From: Deltaproteobacteria bacterium
GTDB lineage: Bacteria > Desulfobacterota > RBG-13-43-22
DNA length: 64,000 bases
Direction of reading: 5' to 3'
NCBI GenBank assembly: GCA_016219225.1
Contig: JACRBX010000202.1
Location: 741 to 64,740, forward strand
Shown here: one piece after another, positions 26,817 through 43,220 of the stretch
Numbering within the stretch: position 1 is the first letter of the stretch
Layout: each line of letters opens with the position of its first letter
The notes under the pieces: model-generated
What the model saw: the letters and a program-made list of their open reading frames with translations, nothing else
Told to the model about the DNA's origin: nothing
The model's database searches: none
Program-made: the position numbers and the translations under genes

Positions 26817-26831
26817 TTTTAGGGGGGACTT

Positions 26832-28028: not shown

Positions 28029-28030
28029 TC

Positions 28031-28576
28031 ATGAACGAGCAGGAACGGGAAAAATGGTATGCTTTTGAGCATCAAAAATATGGCATCCCCATTGAATATC
28101 TGAAGCGGGAATTTGAAAAAGAGTTGTCAGGCCAAGTCCCTATGGACCAACCCCTGGAGATACCTGACAAGATGGAGGTCATCTATAAGTACAGTTACGG
28201 CCAACAATCCCGGTTTTTCAGGGAACTGCGGGAAAACAAGAAAATTTACGGGGCCAAATGCCCCCAATGCAGCAAGGTCTACTGCCCTCCCAGGGCCCAT
28301 TGTTCCCTGTGCTATCAGCCTACCGAATGGGTGCCTTTGACCGGGACCGGGGTGATCAAGACCTTTACGGTCCAGTATATCTCCACCAGTGCCTTTATTA
28401 AAAAAGTTCCCTTTGTCTGCGCCTATGTGCAATTAGATGGAACCGATTTTCTGCTCATGGCCAATATGGAAGTGGAAGATGTGGCCCGGATCAGGGTGGG
28501 GACAAAAGTCAAGGCCGTCTTTCGTGAAGAACGGCAGGGGACCATCACGGATTTTTATTTTGAACCGTACGAATAA
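28031..28576 (+). CDS. DUF35 protein (rubredoxin-like Zn ribbon plus OB-fold), partner of the thiolase-fold protein
   Basis: CPQCSKVYCPPRAHCSLC zinc ribbon. Size (about 180 aa) and thiolase-adjacent position match BbsA and the ChsH2-DUF35 domain. Confidence 0.8.
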   Translation: MNEQEREKWYAFEHQKYGIPIEYLKREFEKELSGQVPMDQPLEIPDKMEVIYKYSYGQQSRFFRELRENKKIYGAKCPQCSKVYCPPRAHCSLCYQPTEWVPLTGTGVIKTFTVQYISTSAFIKKVPFVCAYVQLDGTDFLLMANMEVEDVARIRVGTKVKAVFREERQGTITDFYFEPYE

Positions 28577-28581
28577 TTTTT

Positions 28582-28614
28582 TTGACAGGATTTACGGGAT
28601 TGACAGGATTGACA
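28582..28614 (+). promoter_or_regulatory. Tandem 9-bp direct repeats TTGACAGGA / TTTACGGGA / TTGACAGGA / TTGACAAAT, each containing a -35-like box. Possible direct-repeat regulator site or promoter upstream of the BKACE-ligase-MaoC genes.
   Basis: Seen directly. The same TTGACAGGAT word also occurs at 16247. Confidence 0.4.
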
Positions 28615-28646
28615 AATTCATAAAAAGTCCCTATGCGCGCATATTC

Positions 28647-28724
28647 GTCATTCCCGTGAAAACGGGAATCCAGTGCTTTTAAGCAGTCACGAGTTGACTG
28701 GATTCCCGCCTTCGCGGGAATGAC
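28647..28724. repeat. REP/BIME-like inverted pair (gtcATTCCCGTgaaaACGGGAATccag, a 24-nt spacer, then ctggATTCCCGCcttcGCGGGAATgac)
   Basis: Two 8-bp-stem hairpins in opposite orientation. Homologous to the elements at 9402, 43298 and 63886. Confidence 0.85.
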
Positions 28725-28838
28725 GAGTTTTTGCGAGTTAATCAGGATTGTATTTTCCCCTTTCTTGTCGAAGGGTAAAAAAATCCAATTAATCCCTTTT
28801 AAAAGTAATTTAATACACATCAATCGCGGAGGCCATAA

Positions 28839-29678
28839 ATGTCCCGGAAAGTCATCATCACCATTGCCCCCACAGGCAGTATACCGACCCGGAAAAACAA
28901 TCCCAATCTTCCGATTACGCCGGAAGAAGTGGCCGAAGAAGCGCGTCGCTCTTATGAGGCCGGGGCTGCCGTGGTGCACCTCCACGCCAGGAATCCCGAT
29001 ACCGGTGAACCCACGCCGGACATCGAGGTCTTCCGGGCCAATCTTGAGGCCATCCGGGCGGCCTGCCCGATCATTACCCAGATCACCTCGGGCGGCGGGG
29101 CAACCCGCTTGGGCCTCACACCGGAGGAGCGGTTGAAACCGGTCCTGGAACTCCAACCCGATTCGGCCTCTTTGAATGCCGGCTCCATGAATTTCGGCCG
29201 GAACCTCTTTCCCAATCTTCCGGAAGTCATGGAGCTATATGCCCGGAAGATGAAAGAGATCAAGGTCATGCCCGAGTTTGAAGTCTATGATCTGTCCATG
29301 ATTAATAATGTAGAGGTCTGGATCCGCCAGGGCGGGATATTGGAACCCCCCTATCAATTCAGTTTTGTCCTTGGGGTTTTGGGCGGGATTCCGGCCACCT
29401 TTAAAAATCTCCTGGCCCTGAAGGAAAGCCTGCCCGAGGGCTACACCTGGCAGGCTATCGGTATCGGCCGCCATCAGATCCCCATGGGGATTATGGCTGT
29501 CCTTATGGGGGGAAATTTCCGGGTCGGTTTTGAAGATAATGTTTACCTGTCCAAAGGGGTCCTGGCCAAAAGCAATGCCGAATTGGTGGAAAAGGCGGTG
29601 CGCATCATCCGGGAATTGGGGTATGAACCCGCTACGGTAGCAGAGGCCAGGGAGATATTGCCGCTGTTGAATAAATAA
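28839..29678 (+). CDS. Beta-keto acid cleavage enzyme (BKACE/DUF849, 3-keto-5-aminohexanoate cleavage enzyme family)
   Basis: VIITIAPTGSIPTRK N-terminus and a TIM-barrel family signature. GGAGG RBS. Confidence 0.85.
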   Translation: MSRKVIITIAPTGSIPTRKNNPNLPITPEEVAEEARRSYEAGAAVVHLHARNPDTGEPTPDIEVFRANLEAIRAACPIITQITSGGGATRLGLTPEERLKPVLELQPDSASLNAGSMNFGRNLFPNLPEVMELYARKMKEIKVMPEFEVYDLSMINNVEVWIRQGGILEPPYQFSFVLGVLGGIPATFKNLLALKESLPEGYTWQAIGIGRHQIPMGIMAVLMGGNFRVGFEDNVYLSKGVLAKSNAELVEKAVRIIRELGYEPATVAEAREILPLLNK

Positions 29679-29727
29679 AAAATATGAGGAAAAGGAGAAT
29701 TTCGATATTCATATTTGGAGGAATCTT

Positions 29728-31263
29728 ATGGAAATGACTCTCGGTGAGGCATTTGCCCGTTCGGCCCGAAAATTTCCGGACAAAACGGCCTGTATGGATG
29801 ATGAAAAAAGTATCACCTATGGCCGGATGAATGAACGGGTTAATCGCTGGGCCCAGGCGGCTATTGGATTGGGTTTGGAAAAGGGCCGTCATGTAGCCAC
29901 CTTGGCCAATAATTGTCTGGCTTTAATGGAAGTCTATCTGGGAAATCTAAAATGCGGCCTGGTCACCGTACCTATCGACGCCCGGGCCACTTTGCAGGAT
30001 AAGTGTTATCAGGCCGAATTCACCGACAACGACGTCCTGATCTTTCACTCTGATTTTTCCGGTACGGTAGAAGAAATACGCAGTCGGCTTCCACAGATAA
30101 AAACCTTTGTCTGTCTGGGCGGGAATTGCCCTTCTTTTGCCCTGGATTACGAAAAGCTGCTTCGGCAAAGCCAGGATAAAGAAACGGAAATCCCTCTGGT
30201 GGAAGAAGACGAAGCCTTTATCCTGTTCACAGGAGGGACCACCGGCCGTTCCAAAGGGGCGATACTGACCCATAAGAATTTACTCTGGAATATCATTTGT
30301 GTGACCACTGAAAATCAAAGCCCCACCCCGGAAGATAGTGTCTATTATCCCATGCAGATGTACCACACGGCGGCCTTAAGCCGTTTTCTGGCCTACATGT
30401 ATGCCGGCGGGACCTTCATCGGCAGCAAAACCTTTAACCCGGATACTTATCTGGATGTGGTGGAAAAAGAACGGACCACCTTTATCGTCGGCAATCCCAC
30501 CATCTTCAGGATGCTCCTGGAGGCCAATATCAAACGTCCCCGGGACACGTCTTCCATGAAGCGCTGGTTTTGCTCTCAAGGTTTTTTGCATCCGGATTTA
30601 AAAGAAGATATCCAAAAATATCTCTGGCCCAACGGCGAGCTGTACGGCTCTTATGCCTTGACCGAGGCCTCGCCGGCAGTGACCGTTTTAAAACCTACGG
30701 ACAGACCCCGTCAATGGGGGAGTGTCGGCCGCCCTTATATGTGCACCGAGGTGCGTATCGTGGATGAGTCTGATCAGGACAGGCCTGTTGGAGAAGAGGG
30801 GGAAATTATCGTCCGCGGGCCCACGGTTTTCAAAGGGTATTACAAAAACCCCGAAGAAACCGCCCGGACCTTAAGGGGGGGCTGGCTGCACACCGGGGAT
30901 GTGGGCCGATACGATGACCTGGGTTTTCTCTATATGGTCGACCGGATCAAGGACATGATCAAGACCGGGGGGATTAATGTCTTTTGCAGTGAAATAGAAG
31001 AGGTCCTTTCCCGCCATCCGGATATCTCCGAAGGGGTGGTCATCGGGGTCCCCCATGTCAAATGGGGAGAATCCATCCGGGCCATCGTGGTCCCTAAAAA
31101 AGGGGCGGAGTTGTCGGAAGCGGCAGTCATCGAACACTGCCGCTGCCATCTGGCCAGTCATAAGAAGCCCACCTCGGTCATCTTTTTGGAGGAACTGCCC
31201 AAAGGGACCTTTGGCGGCAAGGTTTTGAAAAGAATTTTACGGGAGCAATACGGAAAGGAATAG
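29728..31263 (+). CDS. AMP-dependent acyl-CoA synthetase/ligase
   Basis: FTGGTTGRSKGA AMP-binding motif and a GWLHTGD motif. Confidence 0.9.
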   Translation: MEMTLGEAFARSARKFPDKTACMDDEKSITYGRMNERVNRWAQAAIGLGLEKGRHVATLANNCLALMEVYLGNLKCGLVTVPIDARATLQDKCYQAEFTDNDVLIFHSDFSGTVEEIRSRLPQIKTFVCLGGNCPSFALDYEKLLRQSQDKETEIPLVEEDEAFILFTGGTTGRSKGAILTHKNLLWNIICVTTENQSPTPEDSVYYPMQMYHTAALSRFLAYMYAGGTFIGSKTFNPDTYLDVVEKERTTFIVGNPTIFRMLLEANIKRPRDTSSMKRWFCSQGFLHPDLKEDIQKYLWPNGELYGSYALTEASPAVTVLKPTDRPRQWGSVGRPYMCTEVRIVDESDQDRPVGEEGEIIVRGPTVFKGYYKNPEETARTLRGGWLHTGDVGRYDDLGFLYMVDRIKDMIKTGGINVFCSEIEEVLSRHPDISEGVVIGVPHVKWGESIRAIVVPKKGAELSEAAVIEHCRCHLASHKKPTSVIFLEELPKGTFGGKVLKRILREQYGKE

Positions 31264-31271
31264 ATTTTTTT

Positions 31272-31724
31272 ATGGCCCCCCATTATTTTGACGATTTCTA
31301 TCTTGGCCAGGAATTCATTACTAAGAGCCGGACGGTGACTGAAACCGATATAGTCAATTTCGCCGCCCTGTCCTGGGATACCAACCAACTGCATACCGAT
31401 GCCGAATTCGCCAAAACGACCCCTTTCGGCGAGCGGATTGCCCACGGCATGCTGGGCCTGGTGATCCATACCGGACTGTCCCAGATGCTGGGGATCATGG
31501 AAGGAACCGTCATTGCCTTTCTGGGCCTGACCTGGAATTTTCTCCTGCCCGTCCGCATCGGGGATACCATCCATGTGGTCCAGCGGGTCAAGGAACTGCG
31601 GGAGACTTCCAATCCGGAGCGGGGGATCCTGGTCCTTGAAAAGGAAGTGGTCAATCAAAAGGGAGAGACCGTTCAGAAAGGGACGACCACTACCCTGATG
31701 GCCAGGCAGAAAAGAGGCCAATAA
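31272..31724 (+). CDS. MaoC-like (R)-specific enoyl-CoA hydratase/dehydratase (hotdog fold)
   Basis: 150 aa with a hotdog core DTNQLHTDAEFAKTTPFGERIAHGML. Confidence 0.85.
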   Translation: MAPHYFDDFYLGQEFITKSRTVTETDIVNFAALSWDTNQLHTDAEFAKTTPFGERIAHGMLGLVIHTGLSQMLGIMEGTVIAFLGLTWNFLLPVRIGDTIHVVQRVKELRETSNPERGILVLEKEVVNQKGETVQKGTTTTLMARQKRGQ

Positions 31725-31728
31725 ATTT

Positions 31729-31800
31729 ATGAAGATCCTCTTCGGCAAGCCCATCGCCTCTTTTCAACTGGTCCAGAATCTGCTGGCCGAGATGTCTAAT
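31729..31800 (+). pseudogene. Remnant of an acyl-CoA dehydrogenase gene (about 24 codons of the C-terminal domain)
   Basis: Translation ILFGKPIASFQLVQNLLAEMSN matches the conserved R..FGKPIG.FQ...LAEM ACAD motif. No N-terminal domains are present. A shorter trace of the same sequence lies at 38333..38356. Confidence 0.45.
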
Positions 31801-31802
31801 AG

Positions 31803-31821
31803 GTCAGGCATCTTGCCTGAC
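31803..31821. promoter_or_regulatory. Palindrome GTCAGGCA-tct-TGCCTGAC within a duplicated about 70-bp junction element directly upstream of the CoA-transferase start codon
   Basis: Second copy (GTCAGGCA-tcc-TGCCTGAC) at 38375..38393. Both are embedded in homologous flanks (atgtctaa...aaaaATGgg). Dimeric TF site or hairpin. Confidence 0.45.
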
Positions 31822-31849
31822 AATAGATTGAAATTAAAAAGGACGAAAA

Positions 31850-33046
31850 ATGGGTCACTACAGTAACAGCGGACCGCTCAGCGGAATAAAAATTCTGGAT
31901 TTTTCCAGCCTTCTGCCCGGTCCTTTTGCAACATTATATCTGGCCGATATGGGGGCCACGGTTTTGCGGGTCGGTTCAGGCACCAGGCCGGACCCTATAG
32001 AGACCAGAACACCTTTTATTCCTGAGACTGAAATTTCAGCGCTCTGGGCCTACCTGGCACGGGGTAAGCAGTCGATCAATCTAAACCTTAAAAATCCCAA
32101 GGCCGTCAGGATTGTTGAACAGTTGATCGCCGAATATGATGTGGTCATCGAACAATTTCGACCGGGTGTGATGGGCAAACTGAGATTGGATTATGAAAGC
32201 CTGAAAAAAATTAATCCGGCCGTCATCTATTGCTCGCTAACCGGCTATGGACAGACCGGTCCCTTAAGAAAAAGGGCCGGTCATGACATTAACTATCTTT
32301 CTCTGGCTGGACTTCCGGCTTATTCAGGGAAAAAAGAAAGCGGTCCGTCTCTGACGGGTATGCAGATTGCCGATATCGCTTCCGGTTCACTCCATTCGGT
32401 TATCGGTATTCTGGCGGCCGTCATCCATAGAAAGGAAACCGGGGAAGGACAATATATAGACCTAGCCATGATGGATGGGGTGATGGCCTTTAATATTGCA
32501 TCCGGGGTTTCTTGCCTGGTGGACGGGACAGAGCCGGTCCGGGAAAGGGAACGGCTGAACGGGGGGACCCTTTATGATTTTTATGAAACCAAAGACGGGG
32601 AATATATGAGTCTTGGTGCCCTGGAACCCCAGTTCTTTAAAGCCTTTTGTGAAGCCATCGGGCGTCCGGATCTTATATCTGGCGGCATTGCTCCCAAAAA
32701 TATTGAAACGGTCAAGGCTGAAGTTCGCGCCATTTTTAAATCAAAAACGAGGGATGAATGGAGAGAAATTTTCAGGGACTTCGATGCCTGTGTGGAGCCG
32801 GTGCTCGGTCTTTCGGAAGCCTTAAACAGCGCCCAGGCCAAAGAACGTCAGATGGTCATCGATATAGAACTGCCGGAGGGTGGCAAGGTCAGGCAGCTGG
32901 CTAACCCGATTAAGTTTTCTCATGCCCCTAAAGAATACACCTCTATAGGGGTTCCTTCGGGGACACACACCAAAGAGATTATCGGCGGATTAAGCTATTC
33001 GGAGGAGGAGTATAAAAGGATGGAGCAAGAAGGGGTCTTTAGTTAA
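31850..33046 (+). CDS. Family III CoA-transferase
   Basis: GIKILDFSSLLPGPFATLYLADMGATVLRV motif. Directly followed by a second family III gene, so possibly a BbsEF-like heterodimer. Confidence 0.9.
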   Translation: MGHYSNSGPLSGIKILDFSSLLPGPFATLYLADMGATVLRVGSGTRPDPIETRTPFIPETEISALWAYLARGKQSINLNLKNPKAVRIVEQLIAEYDVVIEQFRPGVMGKLRLDYESLKKINPAVIYCSLTGYGQTGPLRKRAGHDINYLSLAGLPAYSGKKESGPSLTGMQIADIASGSLHSVIGILAAVIHRKETGEGQYIDLAMMDGVMAFNIASGVSCLVDGTEPVRERERLNGGTLYDFYETKDGEYMSLGALEPQFFKAFCEAIGRPDLISGGIAPKNIETVKAEVRAIFKSKTRDEWREIFRDFDACVEPVLGLSEALNSAQAKERQMVIDIELPEGGKVRQLANPIKFSHAPKEYTSIGVPSGTHTKEIIGGLSYSEEEYKRMEQEGVFS

Positions 33047-34204
33047 ATGAGTAGAGCGCTTGAAGGGATCAAGGTTTTGGATCTGGGAAGCTATATCGCC
33101 GGCCCCTATTGTTGTATGCTTTTGGCGGATCATGGGGCCGAGGTCATCCGGGTGGAGCCGCCGATGGGTAAGGTGGATCGTGAACTGGGCCCCTATTCGC
33201 CGGACGGCCAGCCCATGTCCTTCGGTTTGACGATACAGCGAAACAAGAAAAATATCACCTTAAACTTAAAGTCCGAAGCGGGAAAGCGACTTTTAGAGGA
33301 ATTGGTTAAAAAGGCCGATATCCTGGTGCACAATTCTCCTAAAGGATCGGAAGAGGCCCGGGTCCTCGAATATGAGCGTTTGAGCAGGATCAATCCGGCT
33401 TTGATCGTTGTGGCCATATCCGGCTTCGGGCAGAACGGCCCTTATGCGGAGCGGCCTTGCTTTGATGCCATTGCCCAGGCCATGTCCGGTTCCATGCCCT
33501 TCACCGGATATCCGGGATTGCCGCCCCTCAGGGCCGCCCTCCCTTATATCGATTTCAATACAGCGGCCCGGGCCGCTTTCGGGGCTATGATGGCCTATGT
33601 GGAGCGTCAGACGAGCGGCCGGGGGCAGCTTGTCGACATTGCCCTCTTTGACGTGGCCTTCTCCATAGTGGGCTCCGTGGGGTGTGCGGCCGAATACCTG
33701 CTCCTGGGTGAATTGCGAAAACAAGTCGGTAATGGGGGGTTCTATGCCTATTGCTGCAGTGCCTCGGCAAAAGACGGCTACCTGATGATCAATATCGTCG
33801 GCAATAGTATGTGGCGGCGCATGTGCCGGGTCCTGGGTCGGGAGGATCTGGCTAAAGATCCGCGCTTTAAAGATAATCTGCAACGCTACCGGAACTATGA
33901 GGCCATTGATCCGATCCTGGGGGATTGGATCAGAGATAAAACGATAGCCGAAGCCATGCGAATACTGGATGAAGCCGGTATCCCCTGCGGTCCGGTCAAT
34001 GATGTCTCCCGGACCCTGGAGGTGCCGCAAATTAAGGCCCGGGAAATGCTGATCGAACTCGACTATCCCGTCACCGGAAAAATTCCGGTTCCAGGGGTGG
34101 ATATCAAACTATCGAGAACACCGGGCCGGGTGGCTAAACGGGCATCTTTGTTGGGAGAAGACAATGAATCCATTTACTGCTGGCTTCTCGGCTATGAACC
34201 GTAA
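33047..34204 (+). CDS. Family III CoA-transferase (paralog of 465..1667)
   Basis: GIKVLDLGSYIAGPYCCMLLADHGAEVIRVE motif. Its start codon abuts the upstream stop codon. Confidence 0.9.
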   Translation: MSRALEGIKVLDLGSYIAGPYCCMLLADHGAEVIRVEPPMGKVDRELGPYSPDGQPMSFGLTIQRNKKNITLNLKSEAGKRLLEELVKKADILVHNSPKGSEEARVLEYERLSRINPALIVVAISGFGQNGPYAERPCFDAIAQAMSGSMPFTGYPGLPPLRAALPYIDFNTAARAAFGAMMAYVERQTSGRGQLVDIALFDVAFSIVGSVGCAAEYLLLGELRKQVGNGGFYAYCCSASAKDGYLMINIVGNSMWRRMCRVLGREDLAKDPRFKDNLQRYRNYEAIDPILGDWIRDKTIAEAMRILDEAGIPCGPVNDVSRTLEVPQIKAREMLIELDYPVTGKIPVPGVDIKLSRTPGRVAKRASLLGEDNESIYCWLLGYEP

Positions 34205-34350
34205 GATCTGATACGATTGAAGGAAGAAAAGGCAATTTGAAGGGCAGCACCTTTGAAATTCATGAATTCAGGAGTCAGAAGCCAAAATTCAGAATGAGGA
34301 TCAATTCTTAAGAATCGACATTCATTACAGATATGGAGGGAAAAACAATG

Positions 34351-35805
34351 ACAGGAATCGTGTCTTATGGAGGCTATGTGCCTCGTTACCGGCTGGATCG
34401 TCGGAAGATATTTCAGGCTATGGGCTGGATGGACCCTTCGACCGCTTCGAATATGAGAGGCGAAAAGGCGGTAGCCAATTTTGATGAAGACAGCATCACC
34501 ATGGCCGTTGCCGCGGGAATAGACAGCCTCTGCGGGATGGACAGGTCGAAGGTGGATGGACTCTATTTCGCCTCGACCACCATGCCCTATAAGGAGCGGC
34601 TCAATGCCGGCATTTGCACGGCGGCTTTAGGACTCAAAGATCAAGTACGGGCCGCGGATTTCGGCGGCGGGCTGAAAGCCGGGACAACGGCGCTGCTGGC
34701 CGCCCTGGAAAGTGTCGCGGCCGGCGGTGCCAATACCATTATGGTTTGTGCTTCCGATTCCCGAATGGGAAGGCCGGCCTCCGGGGAAGAGATGATCTTT
34801 GGCGACGCTGCCGCAGGATTTATCGTCGGGAATGGAGAGGTGATCGCCGAATTCAAGGGCTCCTATTCGATCACCTATGATTTCGGCGATCACTACCGCG
34901 GGGCCTTTGCGAGGTTCGATCGGAAGTGGGAAGACCGATGGATTCGGGATCTGGGTTATGATCATTTTTTACCTGAGGTAATCAAGGGGTTCCTTTCCAA
35001 ATACGGCCTGAAGATCCAGGATTTTGCCAAGGTCATCTACGACTGCCATTATGGGGCGGAGCGTAAAAAACTCAATAAGATGCTGGGGATTACCGCCGAG
35101 ATGGATCAGGGGAATTACCAGGAACAGATCGGCCACTGCGGAGCGGCCCAAAGTCTGGTTATGCTGGCCGGTGCCCTGGAAGGGGCCAGGCCGGGAGACC
35201 GGCTGTTAGTGGTGAGCTTCGGCAGCGGCTGTGATGCCCTTTGTTTTGAGGTCACTGAAAACATCCTGAACAAAAAAAGCGGCCGCGGTATTTCGGGTTC
35301 CCTGGCCAACCGGGCGGAATTGGATGTTTATGAAAAATACCTGGTCTGGCGGGATATCCTGCCGGCGGAGATGGGGCTTCGGAGTGAGGAGGATCTCTGG
35401 ACCAGATGGACCGCTTTGTGGCGCAAGCGTAAAGAGGTCCTGGGACTCTGGGGCTCCCGGTGTTTAAAATGCGGGACTCCCCAATTACCGGCCCAGAAAA
35501 TCTGTGTTAATCCCGAGTGTGGGGCCGTCGACCAGATGGAAGAATATCTCTTTTCCGATAAGAAAGGACAGGTAGTCAGTTTTACCGGAGACATGCTGGC
35601 CGCTTCCTACAATCCTCCGGCCATCTACGGGGCCGTGGAATTCGAAGGGGGGGGCAAGTATTATTTTGACTTTGTCGATTGCACCCTGGCGGAAATGGCC
35701 ACCGGCCTGCCGGTGACCTTCAGTTTCAGAAGAAAATATTATGATAAGAAACGGGACATTTCCGGGTACTTCTGGAAGGCGGTCCCGGTAAAGGAGGACA
35801 AATAA
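34351..35805 (+). CDS. HMGCS/FabH-fold protein fused to C-terminal DUF35. The nucleophilic Cys is apparently absent.
   Basis: Homolog of 18038..19486 (FASTTMPYKERLN, FGDAAAGFIVG). Zn ribbon CLKCGTPQLPAQKICVNPECG. Start at ATG 34351 with a GGAGGG RBS. The track start 34333 is also possible. Confidence 0.8.
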   Translation, partial: TGIVSYGGYVPRYRLDRRKIFQAMGWMDPSTASNMRGEKAVANFDEDSITMAVAAGIDSLCGMDRSKVDGLYFASTTMPYKERLNAGICTAALGLKDQVRAADFGGGLKAGTTALLAALESVAAGGANTIMVCASDSRMGRPASGEEMIFGDAAAGFIVGNGEVIAEFKGSYSITYDFGDHYRGAFARFDRKWEDRWIRDLGYDHFLPEVIKGFLSKYGLKIQDFAKVIYDCHYGAERKKLNKMLGITAEMDQGNYQEQIGHCGAAQSLVMLAGALEGARPGDRLLVVSFGSGCDALCFEVTENILNKKSGRGISGSLANRAELDVYEKYLVWRDILPAEMGLRSEEDLWTRWTALWRKRKEVLGLWGSRCLKCGTPQLPAQKICVNPECGAVDQMEEYLFSDKKGQVVSFTGDMLAASYNPPAIYGAVEFEGGGKYYFDFVDCTLAEMATGLPVTFSFRRKYYDKKRDISGYFWKAVPVKEDK

Positions 35806-35806
35806 A

Positions 35807-37012
35807 ATGGCAAGTGGAATCAAAGATAAGGTGGCCATTCTGGGCATGGGCTGTTCCCGCTTCGGGGAGCGTTGGGAAAGCGGTGCCGAGGATTTGATGG
35901 TTGAGGCCTTTACGGAATGTCTGGCCGATGCCGGTATAGAAAAGAAAGAGATCCAGGCGGCCTATTTGGGGACCCATTTTGACGAGGTCAACGTGGGCAA
36001 GGCGTCCTTGCCTTTGTCCCTGGCCTTGAAACTGCCCTTTGTCCCCGCCACCAGGGTTGAAAATTTTTGTGCCACGGCCACGGAGGCCTTGAGGGCCGCA
36101 TCCTATGCCGTGGCCGCCGGAGCCTATGATATTGTCCTGGCCCTGGGGGTGGAGAAGCTGAAGGACACGGGCTACGGCGGTCTGCCCGGCGGGGCCGGCC
36201 GGGGCGTTAATGCCCGCATGGAAGCGGCCAACATGACCGCCCCGGGGATGTTTGCCCAATTGGCCACGGCCTACAGCGCCAAGTGGGGTATCTCCATGGA
36301 GAAAATCAAGGATGCCATTACCCATGTGTCGGTGAAGAGCCATGCCAATGGGGCCATGAATCCCAAGGCCCATTTAAGGAATGTGATCACCGAAGAACAG
36401 GCCAAGAAGGCCCCCATGATCGCCTATCCCCTGGGACTTTTTGATTGCTGCGGGGTGAGCGACGGATCGGCGGCCGCCATAGTGACCACTCCGGAGATCG
36501 CCAGAAGTTTGAAGAGGAATCAGGATATCGTCTTTATCAAGGCCATTCAGGTGGTCTGCAGTTCCGGAGAGGAGGAGATGTTCACGAAATGGGACGGGTC
36601 CCATTTCGCCACCACCCGGCGGGCGGCCACCATGGCTTATAACGAAGCAGGAATAAAAGACCCCAGGCAGGAAATCAGCATGATGGAGGTCCATGATTGT
36701 TTCTCCATCACGGAAATGGTCACCATGGAAGACCTGCACATCTCCCCCAAGGGAGGGGCCTATGAAGATATTATGAGCGGGTTTTTCGATCTGAAGGGCC
36801 AGGTGCCCTGCCAGGTGGATGGCGGCTTGAAATGTTTCGGCCATCCCATTGGGGCCTCGGGACTCCGGATGGTCTATGCCATGTATGAACAATTGCTGGA
36901 CCGGGTTCCTGAAGAGCGGAAGGTTAAAAATGCCCGATTAGGCCTGACCCATAATTTGGGGGGCTTCCCCTGGAAAAACGTGGCGGCCATTTCGATTGTC
37001 GGAAGGGGGTGA
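35807..37012 (+). CDS. SCP-x/archaeal-type thiolase (Cys present in NFCATA)
   Basis: VAILGMGCSRFGE N-terminus, a GHPIGASGLRM motif and an AAGGAGG RBS. Starts 1 nt after the upstream stop. Confidence 0.85.
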   Translation: MASGIKDKVAILGMGCSRFGERWESGAEDLMVEAFTECLADAGIEKKEIQAAYLGTHFDEVNVGKASLPLSLALKLPFVPATRVENFCATATEALRAASYAVAAGAYDIVLALGVEKLKDTGYGGLPGGAGRGVNARMEAANMTAPGMFAQLATAYSAKWGISMEKIKDAITHVSVKSHANGAMNPKAHLRNVITEEQAKKAPMIAYPLGLFDCCGVSDGSAAAIVTTPEIARSLKRNQDIVFIKAIQVVCSSGEEEMFTKWDGSHFATTRRAATMAYNEAGIKDPRQEISMMEVHDCFSITEMVTMEDLHISPKGGAYEDIMSGFFDLKGQVPCQVDGGLKCFGHPIGASGLRMVYAMYEQLLDRVPEERKVKNARLGLTHNLGGFPWKNVAAISIVGRG

Positions 37013-37027
37013 GGAGGACTGATTAAA

Positions 37028-38167
37028 ATGGAAAGAGGACTGTTTCAGGAAGAACATTTAATTTTTCGCGAGGCCTTCAGAAAATTCCTGGATAAGGAAA
37101 TCGCCCCCTATTATGAACAATGGGAAGAAGACGGGATTGTTCCCAAAGCGGTTTGGCACAAGACCGGCGAAAACGGCTATCTCTGTCCCTGGGTGGCCGA
37201 AGAGTATGGAGGGGCCGGTGCCGGGTTGGAATATTCCATTATTATGGCCGAGGAAATGAGCCGAAGGGATTATGTCGGATTCGCCCACTCCCTGCACAGC
37301 AATGTTATTGTACCCTATATTGATACCTACGGCAATGAGGATCAAAAAAGAAGATGGCTGCCAGGCTGTGTCAGCGGTGAGATCATCACGGCCATTGCCA
37401 TGACCGAGCCTAATGCCGGGTCCGATCTGGCGGCCATCCGAACAACGGCCAAAAGAGACGGAGAGGACTATATCCTCAACGGCCAAAAGACCTTCATTTC
37501 CAATGGCCTCAATTCAAACCTGGTTATTGTGGCCGCCAAGACCGATCCGGCGGCCGGTTACAAGGGGATCAGTCTTATTGGTGTCGAAGAGGGCGCCTCC
37601 GGTTTTTCCAGGGGGAGAAAACTGAATAAAATGGGTATGCACAGCCAGGATACGGCCGAGCTGATTTTCGAGGAGTGCCGCGTCCCGGTGGCGAACCTTT
37701 TAGGGGAAGAAGGCAAAGGGTTCCGCTATCTGATGGAAAAACTGCAGCGGGAGAGGCTTTTCTCGGTAACCGGATCTCAGGCCATGGCCGAGGCCATGCT
37801 GGCCCTGACCATTCAGTATTGTAAAGAGCGGGAGATTTTCGGCAAACCGGTCGGGTCGTTCCAGCACAACACCTTCAAGCTGGTCGAAATGGCCACGGAG
37901 ATCGAACTGGGCCGAACCTTTGTTGATGCCTTGATCAAGGAACACATCGCCGGTATCGACATTACCAAAAAGGTTTGCATGGCCAAGTCCTGGGTGGCCG
38001 AGATGGCCAACCGGGTGGCCTACAACTGCCTCCAACTCTTTGGTGGATACGGTTATATGGAGGAATATCCCATCTGCCGCTTTGCCAGGGATGTGCGGGT
38101 CCAAACCATTTATGCCGGTTCTACGGAGGTGATGAAATCGGTGGTGGGGAAGATGCTGGGGTTTTAA
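37028..38167 (+). CDS. Acyl-CoA dehydrogenase
   Basis: ACAD domains with a REIFGKPVGSFQ motif. GAGGAGG RBS. Confidence 0.9.
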   Translation: MERGLFQEEHLIFREAFRKFLDKEIAPYYEQWEEDGIVPKAVWHKTGENGYLCPWVAEEYGGAGAGLEYSIIMAEEMSRRDYVGFAHSLHSNVIVPYIDTYGNEDQKRRWLPGCVSGEIITAIAMTEPNAGSDLAAIRTTAKRDGEDYILNGQKTFISNGLNSNLVIVAAKTDPAAGYKGISLIGVEEGASGFSRGRKLNKMGMHSQDTAELIFEECRVPVANLLGEEGKGFRYLMEKLQRERLFSVTGSQAMAEAMLALTIQYCKEREIFGKPVGSFQHNTFKLVEMATEIELGRTFVDALIKEHIAGIDITKKVCMAKSWVAEMANRVAYNCLQLFGGYGYMEEYPICRFARDVRVQTIYAGSTEVMKSVVGKMLGF

Positions 38168-38195
38168 AGAAAAAACGGTTCAAGGTCCGGTAAAT

Positions 38196-38263
38196 CAGTT
38201 CGGAGTTAAGAGTTCGGAGTAAAACCATTTTCATGTTTCGTGGTGTCCAAATGGGCATGAACG
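38196..38263. repeat. Family C (cagttcggagttaagagttcggag) followed by an inverted family E hairpin unit (ttttcatgtttcgtggtgtccaaatgggcatgaacg)
   Basis: The same C plus inverted-E arrangement recurs at 45041..45117 and 50548..50590. Confidence 0.7.
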
Positions 38264-38374
38264 CTTACTGCGGAAAGAAAAAGCAGAGGAGAGGCACGAG
38301 GCGAGGGGAAACAAGGAGTGGGGGAGTACCCTCTTAATGAGCTTCTTGCAAATGTCTAAGCTCGGAAAAAATAG

Positions 38375-38393
38375 GTCAGGCATCCTGCCTGAC
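38375..38393. promoter_or_regulatory. Second copy of the palindrome GTCAGGCA-N3-TGCCTGAC within the duplicated junction element upstream of the SBP gene
   Basis: See 31803..31821. The flanks share atgtctaa and aaaaATGgg. Confidence 0.45.
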
Positions 38394-38432
38394 TAAAGAT
38401 CATTAAAAATGGGAAAGACAAGGAGAGGGATC

Positions 38433-39575
38433 ATGAAAAGAACAGCAGCAATTATTTTTATGTTAACCATGTTTTTCATCTTCCAGGGGCCGGTATTTGC
38501 TCAGGAGATCAACATCGGTTATACCGGTCCGCTGACCGGGCGGGCAGCGGCCATTGGAATTGACGCCTTACATGGTGCACTGATCGCCGCTAAGGAAATC
38601 AACGACGCCGGCGGGGTGGAGGTGGCCGGGAAGAAGTATAAGGTGAATATCCAGAGCTATGATGATGAAGGGGTGGCCGCCAAGGCCGTAGCCGGGATGC
38701 AACGCCTGAAAGATAAATATGAGGTTCCTGTTATTATTCAAAATATCAGTGGATCCGTTATGGCCATGCTGGAAAGAAATGAAAAGATGGGTGTCCTGCT
38801 GATCGGTTTTTTCAAAATTCCTGAGGCGACCAAGAAGGGAAACAAACTGGTCCTTCGGCATCAACAGACCATTGATGAAGATGCCATAGGGCTGGCCCGG
38901 GAGGCCGTGAAAATTTTAAAGGCCAAAAGTTATGCCATGATCTCCGATACGGGTGATTATGGGAAATCCTCAGTCAAGGCCTACCAGGGGGCCTTTGAAA
39001 AGCTGGGGGTCAAAATGGCTGCCAACGAGTGGCTGGACCAGCGTACTCAGACCGATTTCCGGGGGCAACTGACCAAGATCAAGGCCGCCAACCCGGACGT
39101 GATCTTGCTTACGGCTTATGACGAGGCCTCGGCCGGGGTGATCAAACAGGCCCATGAATTGGGGATCAAGACGCCTTTTGTCGTTTCCACGGGCTTTGCG
39201 GCTGCGGGTGAGAAACTCACCGGTCCTGATTTGATCGAAGGATTTTTAAGACGGGTCGAGTATACTAATATGATTCCTCCACCTGCTGCGGTGGCCCGTT
39301 ATCGGACCCAATTGTACCCGGCCATGGGCTATAAGGAACCGGCAGCCGGCTTTGGTGTGAATTGCTACGCCAGTGTCCACATCATCCTCCAGGCCATGCA
39401 AAAGGCAGGAACGACTACGGACGCCCTTAAGATCCGGCAGGCTGTTCCATTGGTGTTGCCCCTTGATGATAAACATAATACGACCGGTCTGAAAACCTTC
39501 AAGGAAGATGGTGAAGGGGCGATTACCGCCAAGATCGGGAGGTATCAGAAGGGGAAACTGGTGCCGGTTAATTAG
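38433..39575 (+). CDS. ABC transporter substrate-binding protein, LivK/type-I PBP family (paralog of the orphan SBP at 11922)
   Basis: Signal peptide followed by QEINIGYTGPLTGRAAAIG. AAGGAGAGGG RBS before ATG 38433. An in-frame ATG at 38409 lies inside the duplicated element. Confidence 0.85.
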   Translation: MKRTAAIIFMLTMFFIFQGPVFAQEINIGYTGPLTGRAAAIGIDALHGALIAAKEINDAGGVEVAGKKYKVNIQSYDDEGVAAKAVAGMQRLKDKYEVPVIIQNISGSVMAMLERNEKMGVLLIGFFKIPEATKKGNKLVLRHQQTIDEDAIGLAREAVKILKAKSYAMISDTGDYGKSSVKAYQGAFEKLGVKMAANEWLDQRTQTDFRGQLTKIKAANPDVILLTAYDEASAGVIKQAHELGIKTPFVVSTGFAAAGEKLTGPDLIEGFLRRVEYTNMIPPPAAVARYRTQLYPAMGYKEPAAGFGVNCYASVHIILQAMQKAGTTTDALKIRQAVPLVLPLDDKHNTTGLKTFKEDGEGAITAKIGRYQKGKLVPVN

Positions 39576-39645
39576 AGAAAAAAAGTTTCAAGTTTCAAGA
39601 TGCAAGTCAAGACACCATTTTCAAACTGGTATAGGGGTATGAGCG

Positions 39646-40506
39646 ATGGCTGAATTTCTGCAGTATATGGTCAACGGTTTGATTGCCGGCAGCGCTTATG
39701 GTCTTCTGGCCCTGGCCATGACCCTGATCTATGGGATTCTCGCAATCCCCAATTTTGCCCTGGGGGCCATCTATGCGATGGGGGCCTTTATCTCCTTTTA
39801 TGTCATCCAGTGGATGGGACCGGGGTACTATCTGGGGAGCCTCCTGCCGGTGGTGATACTGGCCGGATTGATCGGGGTGATCAGCGAAAGGGTTGTTTTC
39901 CGGCCCCTCCATAATGCCCCCCATGCCGCCGGGTTTATCGGGGCCTTGGGGCTTTACTCCATTCTGGAGGGGGGCTGGAATGTCTGGTTCGGCCCGGATT
40001 GGCGGAGTATCGCCTCTCCGTATAATGACATCATCATCCGGTTGGGTCCGGTCTCCCTGACCCTGCAGCGGTTGATCCTTTTCGGGGTCTGCCTGCTGTT
40101 CGCCCTGGGGACCTACCTGCTGGTTTTTCGGACCCTGACCGGCAAACAGATCCGGGCCTTTTCTGAAAACAAGGATGTAGCCCGGCTGCTGGGGGTCAAT
40201 ACCAACCGCATGTCCTATCTGACTTTTATTATCGGTTACGGCCTGACCGGGATAGGCGGGGCGCTGGTGGCGCCCACGGCCCTGGTGGGATCGAGCATGG
40301 GATTGACGCCGATCATCAAGTCCTTCATCGTGGTGGCCCTGGGGGGACTGGGCAGCGTCACCGGGGCCATAATAGGGGGGCTTATTTTGGGGCTGGGGGA
40401 GAATTTCGGGGCCGCCTATATCAGCTCCATGTATAAGGATCTTTTTTCCTTTGCCCTTTTCCTGGGGGTGCTGCTTTGGATGCCCCAGGGGTTATACCGG
40501 CGATAA
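39646..40506 (+). CDS. ABC transporter permease, LivH-like
   Basis: Polytopic protein with a C-terminal LGLGENFGAAY signature. Confidence 0.9.
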   Translation: MAEFLQYMVNGLIAGSAYGLLALAMTLIYGILAIPNFALGAIYAMGAFISFYVIQWMGPGYYLGSLLPVVILAGLIGVISERVVFRPLHNAPHAAGFIGALGLYSILEGGWNVWFGPDWRSIASPYNDIIIRLGPVSLTLQRLILFGVCLLFALGTYLLVFRTLTGKQIRAFSENKDVARLLGVNTNRMSYLTFIIGYGLTGIGGALVAPTALVGSSMGLTPIIKSFIVVALGGLGSVTGAIIGGLILGLGENFGAAYISSMYKDLFSFALFLGVLLWMPQGLYRR

Positions 40507-40544
40507 CTGAACCGGCCCTTTGGGGGCGACACGAAGAATGAAAA

Positions 40545-40669
40545 AATCGAATATCGAATAATGAATATCGAATGTCGAATGTCGAAGGAAGGCAAAGACC
40601 AATCACTTCATTATTCACAATTTCGAATTAAGCCCTCATGCCCCAGGGGCGCCACGGAGCATGAAAATG
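40545..40669. repeat. Family D unit (aatcgaatatcgaataatgaatatcgaatgtcgaatgtcgaagg), a partial inverted copy (cttcattattcacaatttcgaatt), then a family E hairpin unit (agccctcatgccccaggggcgccacggagcatgaaaatg)
   Basis: Seen directly. Overlaps the first 9 codons of the track ORF starting at 40661, which argues for the later start at 40760. Confidence 0.75.
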
Positions 40670-40759
40670 ACCCGTAAGGGCGGGTTTAAAACCCGCTCCT
40701 ACAGAGCTTCTTTGGAAGTGGGTTTTTTAAATTCCGCAATCCGAAATGGGAAGAGATCT

Positions 40760-41710
40760 ATGCGCAAATTGATTTATCTGTTATTGGGACTTCTGGTAAT
40801 TCTGTTACCGTTTCTGATCCGGTCGAATTACTGGATGTACATGTTCACCCTGGTGGGCATTTACATCATCCTGGTGGCCAGCCTGGATTTGATCTATGGT
40901 TACAGCGGACTGGTCTCTCTGGGCCACGGGGCCTTTTTCGGCCTGGGGGCCTATGCCTGCGGTATTCTGCAGGTCAAATTGGGGCTATCCTTTTTACCGG
41001 CCCTGATTTTGGGAACCCTGTTTACCTGTTTTTCTTCGGCGATCATGGGCTGGCCCATGTTGCGGATCAAGGGGCCTTATTTTGCCCTGGGCACGCTGGC
41101 CCTGGGACTCATGGTGACTATTGTCATTCATAACTGGGACAGTCTGACCGGGGGGGTGAGCCTGTCGGGGATTCCGCTCCCACCGGAGATCCATCTTATG
41201 GGCTGGACCGTGGATTTTTCCTCGAAGCGGACCTATTATTATCTGGTCCTGCTTTTTGTGTTCCTGACCATTTTTCTGATCCGTCGCCTGACCCGTTCCC
41301 GTCCGGGCCGGGCCTTTCAATCCATCCGGGAAAACGAGGACCTGGCCGAAGCGCTGGGGGTGCACATCCTGCGTTACAAGCTCATTGTTTACGTCATCGC
41401 CAGCACCATGGCGGCTTTTGCCGGAGGGCTCTATGCCTGTTACATGGGTTCCATCGAGCCGGAGATCGCCGGGGGGCACATGTCGTTCAATCTGCTGGTC
41501 ATGATCGTCGTGGGCGGGGCGCGGACTGTGACCGGAGAGATCGTCGGACCGTTGCTGCTCTGGTTTCTGCCTGAATTTCTGGAAGCGGCCCAGGTTTACC
41601 GGCCGTTGTTTTATGGATTGATTTTGCTGATCGTCATTCTTTTAATGCCCATGGGGATTGCCGGAAAGCTGCGATCCCTGCATCCGAGGATAGCCCAATG
41701 GATACCGTGA
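40760..41710 (+). CDS. ABC transporter permease, LivM-like
   Basis: Hydrophobic protein. Start moved to ATG 40760 (MRKLIYLLL) with a GGGAAGAG RBS. The upstream extension is repeat-derived. Confidence 0.85.
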   Translation: MRKLIYLLLGLLVILLPFLIRSNYWMYMFTLVGIYIILVASLDLIYGYSGLVSLGHGAFFGLGAYACGILQVKLGLSFLPALILGTLFTCFSSAIMGWPMLRIKGPYFALGTLALGLMVTIVIHNWDSLTGGVSLSGIPLPPEIHLMGWTVDFSSKRTYYYLVLLFVFLTIFLIRRLTRSRPGRAFQSIRENEDLAEALGVHILRYKLIVYVIASTMAAFAGGLYACYMGSIEPEIAGGHMSFNLLVMIVVGGARTVTGEIVGPLLLWFLPEFLEAAQVYRPLFYGLILLIVILLMPMGIAGKLRSLHPRIAQWIP

Positions 41711-43189: not shown

Positions 43190-43191
43190 AA

Positions 43192-43220
43192 GCGGTCAGC
43201 GATCAGCGATCAGCTTTCAG
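43192..43220. repeat. Family F repeat (gcggtcagcgatcagcgatcagctttcag)
   Basis: Related copy (tgagcaatcagcaatcagctttcag) at 62081..62105. Confidence 0.7.

What the first reader, a model, noticed from the sequence alone, without database searches (positions are those of the whole stretch)
31729..38432. Duplicated about 70-bp junction element (ACAD gene remnant plus palindrome GTCAGGCA-N3-TGCCTGAC plus start codon) flanking a 6.5-kb catabolic module
31760-31860 and 38333-38415 are homologous: ..ctgctggccgagatgtctaa..taggtcaggcatcYtgcctgac.a.agat..ttaaaaa..aaaaATGgg. The left copy is preceded by 24 codons translating to the acyl-CoA dehydrogenase motif ILFGKPIASFQLVQNLLAEMSN with no rest of the gene. 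The right copy retains only NELLANV-stop. The segment between the copies carries two CoA-transferases, the HMGCS-like/DUF35 protein, a thiolase and an intact ACAD. This looks like the scar of a segmental insertion or duplication by recombination inside an ACAD gene. The perfectly conserved 8+8 palindrome directly before each ATG could additionally be a dimeric regulator site.
Basis: seen in the sequence. Interest (0 to 1): 0.6.

Follow-up and report, generated by a model that had tools for sequence, protein, structure and literature searches.

The report
REP hairpin repeats beside decayed gene
The two "junction" repeats are copies of a small mobile hairpin element (a REP, moved by a RAYT transposase) that landed in two gene spacers, one of them next to the 24-codon wreck of a deleted acyl-CoA dehydrogenase gene. 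It is a well-known kind of selfish DNA, not the scar of an inserted or duplicated 6.5-kb module.

Summary
The palindrome and the left-hand ACAD fragment are real, but only 31 bp is robustly repeated (31798-31828 vs 38370-38400, 28/31), not about 70 bp.

The core ATAG-GTCAGGCA-TCY-TGCCTGAC is a GTAG-type repetitive extragenic palindrome. The same 22-mer occurs at least 139 times in 120 stretches of MAGs from about ten phyla. Those copies are mostly intergenic, in both orientations, and sit next to unrelated housekeeping genes. In four contigs they directly flank RAYT genes.

A profile built only from foreign copies hits both window copies (E 6.6e-17 and 1.1e-11). It shows that the right copy's "NELLANV-stop" is the arm of a roughly 200-bp REPIN/MITE-like element, not ACAD.

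In close relatives (proteins 80-95% identical) an intact 384-aa ACAD follows the AMP-ligase. In three of them (L184, L186, P0249 contig) it sits straight after MaoC, and in L186 it lies directly before CoAT1. No REP was found in their loci. The window keeps only codons 1-4 fused to codons 275-293 (91% nucleotide identity), and the REP exactly replaces the rest.

The five "module" genes are syntenic in relatives, so nothing was inserted or duplicated there. This is an ordinary REP insertion plus gene decay. The interest is low, apart from the cross-phylum spread of this REP/RAYT family.

The parts
31729..31740 (+). Start codon plus codons 2-4 (MKIL) of the lost ACAD gene ('ACAD_X'), 4 nt after the MaoC stop codon
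   Evidence: Relatives begin ACAD_X with MKILLD or MRILLD at the same distance from MaoC.
31741..31796 (+). Internal ACAD_X fragment (codons about 275-293, FGKPIASFQLVQNLLAEMS), fused in frame to codon 4
   Evidence: 51/56 nt identical to L184 4469-4524 and 48/54 to L186 12681-12734. The peptide is identical to L184 ACAD_X. The only Pfam hit is Acyl-CoA_dh_1.
31797..31836 (+). Left REP element. ATAG tag at 31799-31802, hairpin at 31803-31821 (8-bp stem, TCT loop), then the first 15 nt of the doublet spacer (AATAGATTGAAATTA)
   Evidence: nhmmer profile built from foreign copies only: E 1.1e-11, profile positions 48-87. RNA hairpin -13.1 kcal/mol. Homology to the CoAT1 upstream region of L186 resumes at 31833.
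31729..31866 (+). 45-codon relic ORF that reads through the REP and ends 14 nt past the CoAT1 start codon (31850)
   Evidence: Translation. Whether it is expressed is unknown.
31850..38167 (+). CoAT1, CoAT2, HMGCS-like/DUF35, SCP-x-type thiolase and ACAD_C. This is the alleged 'module'. It is a syntenic core, not an insert.
   Evidence: Pfam. Orthologues in the same order in L186 (82, 95, 95 and 88% identity) and L187. Only CoAT2 lacks a counterpart in L186.
38333..38405 (+). Right REP element, the left half of a roughly 200-bp REPIN/MITE-like doublet. Arm at 38333-38370 (GAGCTTCTTGCAAATGTCTAAGCTCGGAAAAA), ATAG tag at 38371-38374, hairpin at 38375-38393 (TCC loop), short spacer stub
   Evidence: nhmmer E 6.6e-17, profile positions 12-90. 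The arm is 84-88% identical to L058 and L066. RNA hairpin -14.3 kcal/mol. Absent from the orthologous spacer of L187 and from the paralogous spacer at 21989-22088.
38196..38262 (+). Other dispersed repeats in the same spacer: an AGTTCGG heptamer array and a degenerate 'CATTTTCATGYTTCGTGGTG...GGCATGA' element
   Evidence: Repeat families. They show that this spacer is a mosaic of repeats.
38433..39575 (+). Periplasmic binding protein gene. This is the likely true start (RBS AAGGAGAG, signal peptide).
   Evidence: Sequence. Pfam Peripla_BP_6. L187 keeps a 5' relic of the orthologue, so the transporter cassette is ancestral.

Best explanation
Both copies are members of a GTAG-superfamily repetitive extragenic palindrome (REP) family, here tagged RTAG. 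The unit is a 4-nt tag plus an 8-bp stem and a TCY loop. This is non-autonomous single-strand-hairpin DNA that is spread in trans by a REP-associated tyrosine (HUH/Y1) transposase, RAYT.

In this Thermodesulfobacteriota MAG, two copies inserted independently into spacers of a long plus-strand catabolic gene array.
- The right copy is the left half of a roughly 200-bp doublet (arm, REP1, spacer, REP2, arm) that is multicopy in related MAGs.
- The left copy is a singlet. It sits exactly where the 3' 276 bp of an ACAD gene plus about 85 bp of spacer are missing.
- That ACAD gene, intact in relatives and lying between MaoC and CoAT1 in L186, has also lost codons 5-274, leaving a 24-codon in-frame relic.

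That the two copies bracket five genes is coincidental.

Shown:
- Family membership of both copies.
- RAYT association in other genomes.
- The ancestral gene order.
- The deletion breakpoints.

Inferred:
- Mobilisation by a RAYT in this genome.
- Any causal link between the REP and the deletion.
- That the transcribed hairpins (-13 to -14 kcal/mol, 28 and 39 nt upstream of the CoAT1 and SBP start codons) act as intercistronic mRNA stabilisers or processing barriers, as described for other REPs.
For: 1. Distribution. About 4 are expected by chance for 19 fixed bases in 596 Gb on two strands (my calculation). They come from MAGs of Cyanobacteria, Chloroflexota, Planctomycetota, Verrucomicrobiota, Nitrospirota, Thermodesulfobacteriota, Firestonebacteria, Schekmanbacteria and others, with up to 9-10 copies per MAG and several at contig ends.
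2. Anatomy. The base before TAG is A in 82, G in 54, T in 2 and C in 0. The loop is TCT in 71 and TCC in 39, so the element is oriented.
3. Location. 114 of 139 are intergenic. 71 lie between unidirectional genes, 17 between convergent and 11 between divergent. In about 8 cases the TAG is the stop codon of the upstream gene. These are the features reported for GTAG REPs (PMC3733652).
4. Neighbours. Flanking genes are unrelated (RecA, ArgJ, ALAD, PdxA/J, L4, ClpP). The most frequent family among 109 adjacent ORFs is Y1_Tnp.
5. RAYT link. L081 (Scalindua) and L102 (Thermodesulfovibrionia) score 110 and 114 bits against NCBIfam NF047646 'REP-associated tyrosine transposase' (cut-off 80). They are flanked by this hairpin and its partner ATAG-CCGAGGCATCTTGCCTCGG. 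A third RAYT, P0007 on L182, is embedded in clusters of both hairpins.
6. Profile. A profile from foreign copies hits the window at 38333-38405 (E 6.6e-17) and 31797-31836 (E 1.1e-11).
7. Relatives. L184/L185, L186, L187, L188 and the P0249 contig all carry an intact 384-aa ACAD downstream of the AMP-ligase; it follows MaoC directly in L184/L185, L186 and the P0249 contig, while L188 has no MaoC gene called and L187 has ParDE in its place. There is no REP in 47 kb of L184-L187.
8. Breakpoints. They are resolved to the nucleotide.
Against: - Only two copies (plus one unrelated GTAG hairpin at 7744-7769) occur in 64 kb.
- The rest of the source genome could not be scanned, so copy number and the presence of a cognate RAYT there are unknown.
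- The tag is ATAG rather than the canonical GTAG.
- The 8-mer ATGTCTAA precedes both copies at different distances. That leaves a small possibility (shuffle p 0.02-0.05) of shared history beyond the core.
- No expression data exist, so any RNA-level role is conjecture.
Confidence: 0.85

Rival explanations
1. First reader's model. The two copies are a duplicated junction left by insertion or tandem duplication of the 6.5-kb module through recombination inside an ACAD gene.
For: - A real ACAD relic abuts the left copy.
- Both copies have the same orientation.
- There is a marginal left-flank similarity that includes ATGTCTAA.
- The module ends with an ACAD gene.
Against: - The right copy's flank is homologous to a repeat arm in other genomes, not to ACAD.
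- The right copy lies well downstream of the intact ACAD's stop codon.
- The relic derives from a different ACAD, ACAD_X. It is 91% identical in nucleotides to the L184 orthologue, but only 50% identical in amino acids to the motif of the module's own ACAD.
- CoAT1, HMGCS-like, thiolase and ACAD_C are syntenic in L186, and the last three also in L187; no REP was found in either locus.
- GC and GC3 of the module are like the flanks.
Confidence: 0.04
2. The palindrome is the operator of a dimeric transcription factor that controls the catabolic and transport genes downstream of each copy.
For: - It is a perfect 8+8 palindrome, 28-39 nt upstream of two start codons.
- The stems are identical and only the loop differs.
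Against: - The same sequence sits next to unrelated genes in about ten phyla, in both orientations, often at 3' ends.
- It is absent from the orthologous spacers in L186 and L187 and from the paralogous clusters in the window.
- It flanks RAYT genes.
- A better operator candidate exists: CAGTCGACAGTCTAC at 435-449 and 17305-17319. The second site is directly upstream of a GntR/FCD regulator gene.
Confidence: 0.04
3. The hairpins are intrinsic transcription terminators.
For: - The consensus scan flags the right copy on the minus strand, GTCAGGCAGGATGCCTGAC followed by CTATTTTTTC.
- Many family members end in CTATTTT.
Against: - All neighbouring genes are on the plus strand, where no U-tract follows the hairpin.
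- The left copy has no T-run on either strand.
- Across genomes, orientation relative to unidirectional genes is mixed, 42 against 29.
Confidence: 0.05

Closest known systems
GTAG-tagged REPs / SMAGs (Di Nocera et al. 2013, PMC3733652; Nunvar et al. 2010, PMC2817692)
   Same: - A short stem-loop (stem 6-13 bp, loop 2-3 nt) with an unpaired tetranucleotide tag at one end.
- Multicopy and extragenic, mainly between unidirectional or convergent genes.
- The TAG of the tag often serves as a stop codon.
- Occurs as singlets and head-to-head dimers.
- Found in Proteobacteria, Cyanobacteria, Chloroflexi and the PVC group.
- RAYT genes are flanked by the repeats.
   Different: - The tag here is ATAG (RTAG across the family) rather than GTAG.
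- I could not see that paper's Figure 1, so I cannot tell whether this stem sequence is one of its 24 families.
- Nitrospirota, Firestonebacteria and Schekmanbacteria are not on that paper's host list.
REPINs (REP doublets mobilised by RAYTs; Bertels and Rainey 2011, cited from memory and from the reference list of PMC3733652)
   Same: In Thermodesulfobacteriota MAGs the hairpin is the left member of an inverted doublet (tag-hp1 ... hp2-tag) that is multicopy with unrelated flanks.
   Different: - The doublet here carries about 35-50-bp outer arms with imperfect terminal inverted repeats (GAGCCYCTTGCAAATGTCT / AGACTTTTGAAAGAACCTC), so it looks more like a MITE.
- The two hairpins have different stems.
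- Both window copies are half-elements or singlets.
E. coli REP/BIME intercistronic elements (malE-malF paradigm; from memory)
   Same: A transcribed hairpin between genes of one operon. It could act as a barrier to 3'-5' exonucleases or as a processing site.
   Different: No expression or decay data exist here, so the function is only inferred.

Membership tests
REP (RAYT-associated repetitive extragenic palindrome, GTAG superfamily) | Short (20-40 bp) palindrome able to form a stable stem-loop | tested here: met
   8-bp perfect stem and 3-nt loop. RNA fold gives -13.1 and -14.3 kcal/mol.
REP (RAYT-associated repetitive extragenic palindrome, GTAG superfamily) | Conserved unpaired tetranucleotide tag (GTAG) at one end, giving the element an orientation | tested here: inconclusive
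   The window copies carry ATAG. Across 139 family members the tag is RTAG (A 82, G 54, T 2, C 0) and the loop is asymmetric (TCY in 110 of 139). The published variants change positions 2-4 of the tag, not position 1.
REP (RAYT-associated repetitive extragenic palindrome, GTAG superfamily) | Multicopy and dispersed, mostly extragenic, with unrelated flanks | tested here: met
   Met for the family: at least 139 copies, 114 intergenic, up to about 10 per MAG, with unrelated flanking genes. For the source genome, only 2 copies in 64 kb could be seen.
REP (RAYT-associated repetitive extragenic palindrome, GTAG superfamily) | A cognate RAYT gene flanked by the same REPs | tested here: met
   L081 and L102 pass the NF047646 cut-off (110 and 114 bits against 80). 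L057 is sub-threshold. L182/L183 (P0007) sits in REP clusters. This is not testable in the source genome, where only a 64-kb window was available.
REPIN / MITE-like doublet | Two inverted REPs with a spacer, repeated as one unit with sharp borders | tested here: met
   Copies in one MAG share about 200 bp and then diverge abruptly. Truncated half-copies also occur. The window's right copy matches only the left half. Target-site duplications were not examined.
Duplicated recombination junction (segmental duplication or insertion) | Both copies carry sequence from the same interrupted gene, and relatives lack the enclosed segment | tested here: not met
   The right copy has no ACAD-derived sequence. 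The enclosed genes are present and syntenic in L186 and L187.
Transcription-factor operator | Conserved in orthologous promoters and restricted to a regulon | tested here: not met
   Absent from the orthologous spacers. Found beside unrelated genes in many phyla.
Intrinsic terminator | GC-rich hairpin followed by a U-tract on the transcribed strand | tested here: not met
   There is no T-run after either hairpin on the plus strand. Only the minus strand of the right copy fits.
Known structured RNA (Rfam) | Match to a curated covariance model | tested here: not met
   No match at or near either copy at E up to 10 in 31000-39000.

The most novel reading that the evidence does not exclude
This REP/RAYT pair may be unusually promiscuous. 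The identical 22-nt REP is resident and multicopy in about ten phyla, and its RAYTs are 69-80% identical between Planctomycetota and Nitrospirota. That would imply recent inter-phylum transfer of a transposase class usually described as vertically inherited and domesticated. The left window copy exactly replaces about 360 bp at a fresh gene-deletion breakpoint that close relatives lack. It could therefore record a recent REP insertion coupled to a deletion, that is, an active REP-driven route of gene decay.
Probability: 0.25. Interest if true: 0.5.

Novelty: new member of a known kind. Interest (0 to 1): 0.25.

Why it matters
For this locus the result is mainly corrective.
- The "duplicated junction" is mobile REP DNA.
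- The 6.5-kb block is ancestral.
- The only true scar is a decayed ACAD gene, whose intact form and breakpoints can now be stated exactly.

More broadly, it gives a clean, nucleotide-resolved case of a REP sitting at a lineage-specific deletion. It also documents a REP/RAYT family shared, down to identical hairpin sequence, by anaerobic sediment and groundwater lineages of many phyla. That bears on whether RAYT-REP systems are strictly vertically inherited.

It is also a practical warning for annotation. The relic forms a 45-codon ORF, and the REP arm translates to plausible-looking peptide ends.

Tried and rejected
- **Rfam**, 31000-39000 at E up to 10: nothing at either copy.
- **Literature search** for the two half-site strings returned only primers and shRNAs.
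- **Sigma-54 promoter** reading of GGCA...TGC was rejected by eye. The GG-to-GC spacing is 6 nt, not 10.
- **Sigma-70 and terminator scan** gave no promoter at either copy and only a minus-strand terminator-like call.
- **A possible right arm** of the doublet at about 43405-43425 (GGGACTTTTAAAGGTCC) would have made the transporter cassette look element-borne. It did not reach any nhmmer score, and L187 retains a relic of the binding-protein gene. I therefore treat the cassette as ancestral and dropped the idea.
- **JGI metagenome scan with CoAT1** found only relatives of 67% identity or less, in other contexts. Useful synteny came instead from orthologues of the AMP-ligase.
- **Independent assembly of the right junction**: three look-ups found nothing. 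P0025 also had no record.
- **Codon usage and GC3** of the module are not distinct. Only CoAT1 is low, at GC3 0.514.
- **Gene calls in fetched loci** came from a simple longest-ORF heuristic, so the "25 of 139 inside an ORF" figure is an upper bound.

Full report
**1. The observation**

The palindrome GTCAGGCA-N3-TGCCTGAC is present, perfect, at 31803-31821 and 38375-38393. These are the only exact copies in 64 kb, and 0.13 matches were expected even with three mismatches allowed.

The significant repeat is 31 bp long: 31798-31828 against 38370-38400, 28/31 identical, E 2.7e-6. Outside that core the left flanks are only marginally alike (shuffle p 0.02-0.05), essentially because of a shared ATGTCTAA. 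The right flanks are not significantly alike (p 0.16).

The ORF list offers ATG 38409. The binding-protein gene more plausibly starts at ATG 38433, behind AAGGAGAG and before a signal peptide. The "shared start codon" is therefore not part of the repeat.

The left junction is 100% identical in an independent Logan assembly (L001). The right junction could not be cross-checked.

**2. Gene context**

All neighbouring genes are on the plus strand:
- BKACE (28839-29678)
- AMP-ligase (29728-31263)
- MaoC dehydratase (31272-31724)
- [relic + palindrome]
- two family-III CoA-transferases (31850-33046 and 33047-34204)
- HMGCS-like/DUF35 (34333-35805)
- SCP-x-type thiolase (35807-37012)
- ACAD (37028-38167)
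- [palindrome]
- binding protein and LivHMGF (38433-43189)
- AMP-ligases (43448-45034 and 45121-46875)

**3. The palindrome is a REP**

I calculate about 4 expected by chance. The hosts are MAGs of Cyanobacteria, Chloroflexota, Planctomycetota, Verrucomicrobiota, Nitrospirota, Thermodesulfobacteriota ("Deltaproteobacteria"), Firestonebacteria, Schekmanbacteria, Nitrospinota, Poribacteria and others. Single MAGs carry up to about ten copies, and several copies lie at contig ends.

*Anatomy.* The base before TAG is a purine in 136 of 138 cases (A 82, G 54). The loop is TCT or TCC in 110 of 139, so the element has a fixed polarity.

*Location.* 114 of 139 copies are intergenic by a simple ORF call. 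71 lie between unidirectional genes (42 in one orientation, 29 in the other), 17 between convergent genes and 11 between divergent genes. In about eight cases the TAG is the stop codon of the upstream gene.

*Neighbours.* Flanking genes are unrelated to one another. They are ordinary housekeeping genes such as RecA, ArgJ, ALAD, PdxA/PdxJ, L4 and ClpP. The single most frequent family among 109 adjacent ORFs is Y1_Tnp.

*RAYT link.* Two of those ORFs pass NCBIfam's curated cut-off for "REP-associated tyrosine transposase": L081 in Ca. Scalindua and L102 in a Thermodesulfovibrionia MAG, at 110 and 114 bits against a cut-off of 80. They carry the HUH motif. Both are flanked by GTCAGGCAAGATGCCTGAC-CTAT and a partner hairpin, ATAG-CCGAGGCATCTTGCCTCGG. 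They are 69% identical to each other across phyla. A third homologue, P0007 (76% identical), on a 43-kb JGI contig, sits in clusters of both hairpins in alternating orientation.

*Comparison with the literature.* All of this matches the published description of GTAG-tagged REPs. Those have stems of 6-13 bp and loops of 2-3 nt. They favour unidirectional or convergent gene pairs, their TAG is often used as a stop codon, and they form dimers. They occur in Proteobacteria, Cyanobacteria, Chloroflexi and the PVC group, and their RAYT genes are flanked by the repeats (PMC3733652).

**4. A larger element in the window's own lineage**

In Thermodesulfobacteriota MAGs the hairpin is the left member of a roughly 200-bp doublet:

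GAGCCYCTTGCAAATGTCTAA..AAAATAG-hp1-AATAG..GTTGAAAYCATTAGATA-hp2(GTCAGCC..GGCTGAC)-CTAT..AGACTTTTGAAAGAACCTC

It has imperfect terminal inverted repeats and abruptly unrelated flanks. Truncated half-copies also occur.

An nhmmer profile built only from those foreign copies hits the window twice:
- 38333-38405 (E 6.6e-17, profile positions 12-90: arm, tag, hairpin and spacer stub)
- 31797-31836 (E 1.1e-11, positions 48-87: tag, hairpin and spacer start)

**5. The ancestral arrangement**

The source contig is an NCBI "Deltaproteobacteria bacterium" MAG (P0241). Its RNR is 88-93% identical to other delta/Thermodesulfobacteriota MAGs.

Orthologues of the AMP-ligase led to close relatives:
- **L186** (proteins 82-95% identical): BKACE, AMP-ligase, MaoC, an intact 384-aa ACAD ("ACAD_X", 11859-13013), CoAT1, HMGCS-like, thiolase, ACAD_C, AMP-ligase.
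- **L184/L185**: MaoC directly followed by ACAD_X.
- **L187**: AMP-ligase, ParDE, ACAD_X, HMGCS-like, thiolase, ACAD_C, a 5' relic of the binding-protein gene, AMP-ligases.
- **L188** and the **P0249 contig**: a 384-aa ACAD downstream of the AMP-ligase (after MaoC in the P0249 contig; no MaoC gene is called in L188).

The window's ATGAAGATCCTC corresponds to ACAD_X codons 1-4 (relatives have MKILLD or MRILLD). Positions 31741-31796 are 51/56 identical to L184 4469-4524, with an identical peptide FGKPIASFQLVQNLLAEMS (codons about 275-293). Homology to L186's CoAT1 leader resumes at 31833: ATTAAAAAGGACGAAAAATG against ATCAAACAGGACGAAACATG.

So ACAD_X lost codons 5-274 in frame. The REP element (31797-31832) then stands exactly in place of codons 294 to the end plus about 85 bp of spacer.

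No REP or doublet occurs in the 47 kb of L184-L187. The orthologous ACAD_C-to-binding-protein spacer of L187 and the paralogous spacer at 21989-22088 both lack the right-hand element. The binding-protein relic in L187 shows that the transporter cassette is ancestral, not inserted.

**6.

The five genes between the copies are a conserved syntenic block. Only CoAT2 has no counterpart in L186; it is 74% identical in nucleotides to 465-1667. The block's GC and GC3 resemble the flanks.

The relic does not come from the module's own ACAD. Their motifs are only 50% identical in amino acids.

What survives is that the left copy does mark a scar inside an ACAD gene. That scar is a deletion.

**7. How it most likely works**

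- *Shown:* both copies are REP-family members, the family is RAYT-associated, and both are lineage-specific additions to their spacers.
- *Established knowledge of RAYT/REP systems (PMC3733652, PMC2817692, PMC8266576):* HUH/Y1 enzymes recognise the folded single-stranded hairpin plus the tag and cleave there.
- *Inferred:* that such an enzyme placed these copies, and that the REP insertion and the 3' deletion of ACAD_X were one event.
- *RNA level:* both hairpins would be transcribed with their operon (-13.1 and -14.3 kcal/mol), 28 and 39 nt before the next start codon. A role as an exonuclease barrier or processing site is plausible by analogy with other REPs but untested.
- *Relic ORF:* the relic forms a 45-codon ORF (31729-31866) that starts 4 nt after the MaoC stop, reads through the hairpin and overlaps the CoAT1 start. 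It might keep translational coupling, but this is speculation.

**8. Rivals**

- *Operator.* This is contradicted by the distribution and by the element's absence from orthologous spacers. A better operator candidate exists: CAGTCGACAGTCTAC at 435-449 and 17305-17319. The second site lies directly upstream of a GntR/FCD regulator gene.
- *Terminator.* This fits only the minus strand of the right copy.
- *Rfam.* There is no match.

**9. Verdict**

This is an ordinary member of a known class, REP/REPIN with a RAYT, next to a decayed gene. The modestly interesting residue is the identical REP and the 69-80% identical RAYTs across phyla, together with the REP sitting precisely at a recent deletion breakpoint.

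Noticed in passing
window-wide, e.g. 9281-9331, 20674-20716 / 20787-20810, 25101-25124 / 25202-25238, 52385-52414 / 52535-52566, 56395-56420 / 56471-56490, 61234-61257 / 61271-61300: About 35 arrays of 7-bp tandem repeats (AGTTCGG, ATCGAAT, TCGGGGA, AGGCAAT, GAGTGAC and others) sit in almost every intergenic spacer. They often form inverted pairs that would fold into long hairpins just after genes. Similar heptamer arrays adjoin the REP in MAGs of other phyla (L005, L024, L041, L106). They recall cyanobacterial STRR heptamers (from memory). Their origin and function are unexplained.
   Followed up: partly
window 9444-9479, 14957-14992, 28650-28733, 43296-43384, 63880-63971: A second palindromic repeat family, GTCATTCC-CG..CG-GGAATCCAG / CTGGATTCC..GGAATGAC, often occurs as inverted pairs (family D10). 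The same motif flanks the REP in Firestonebacteria and delta MAGs (L007, L008, L042, L100), so it is another cross-phylum repeat.
   Followed up: no
window 435-449 and 17298-17319: The exact 15-mer CAGTCGACAGTCTAC (0.03 expected by chance) lies behind TTGAC-type promoter-like sequence. One copy is upstream of the first CoA-transferase (465). The other is directly upstream of a GntR/FCD regulator gene (17339-18022). It is a likely real operator for these catabolic clusters.
   Followed up: partly
window 7770-7830, 38224-38262, 40625-40660, 45085-45120, 51040-51080, 58660-58700: A dispersed element, '..CATTTTCATGCTTCGTGGTGCC..GGGGCATGAGGGTTTAAT', occurs in either orientation next to heptamer arrays, often immediately before a start codon.
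   Followed up: no
window 465-16238, 17339-31724, 31850-46875: There are three paralogous catabolic and transport clusters (CoA-transferase, HMGCS-like/DUF35, thiolase, ACAD, binding protein, LivHMGF, AMP-ligase), with 71-81% nucleotide identity between paralogues. CoAT2 (33047-34204) has no counterpart in L186 and is 74% identical to 465-1667. CoAT1 has unusually low GC3, 0.514.
   Followed up: partly
L187 8123-8628 and 13996-14216; L186 18272-18340: The region is an indel hot spot among relatives. L187 has a ParD/ParE toxin-antitoxin pair where MaoC and the CoA-transferases lie in other relatives, and it keeps only a 5' relic of the binding-protein gene. L186 lacks the transporter cassette and one AMP-ligase altogether.
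   Followed up: partly
window 7744-7769: A separate GTAG-tagged hairpin, AACAGCCG-AGGG-CGGCTGTT-CTAC (read on the plus strand), lies 16 nt after the stop codon of gene 6466-7728. It is a REP-like singlet of another stem type.
   Followed up: no
P0249 contig (JGI 3300042731), gene 15554-16531: A 325-aa Y1_Tnp gene lies about 2.4 kb downstream of the orthologous AMP-ligase, MaoC, ACAD_X block in one relative. No DNA was available to check for REPs there.
   Followed up: no
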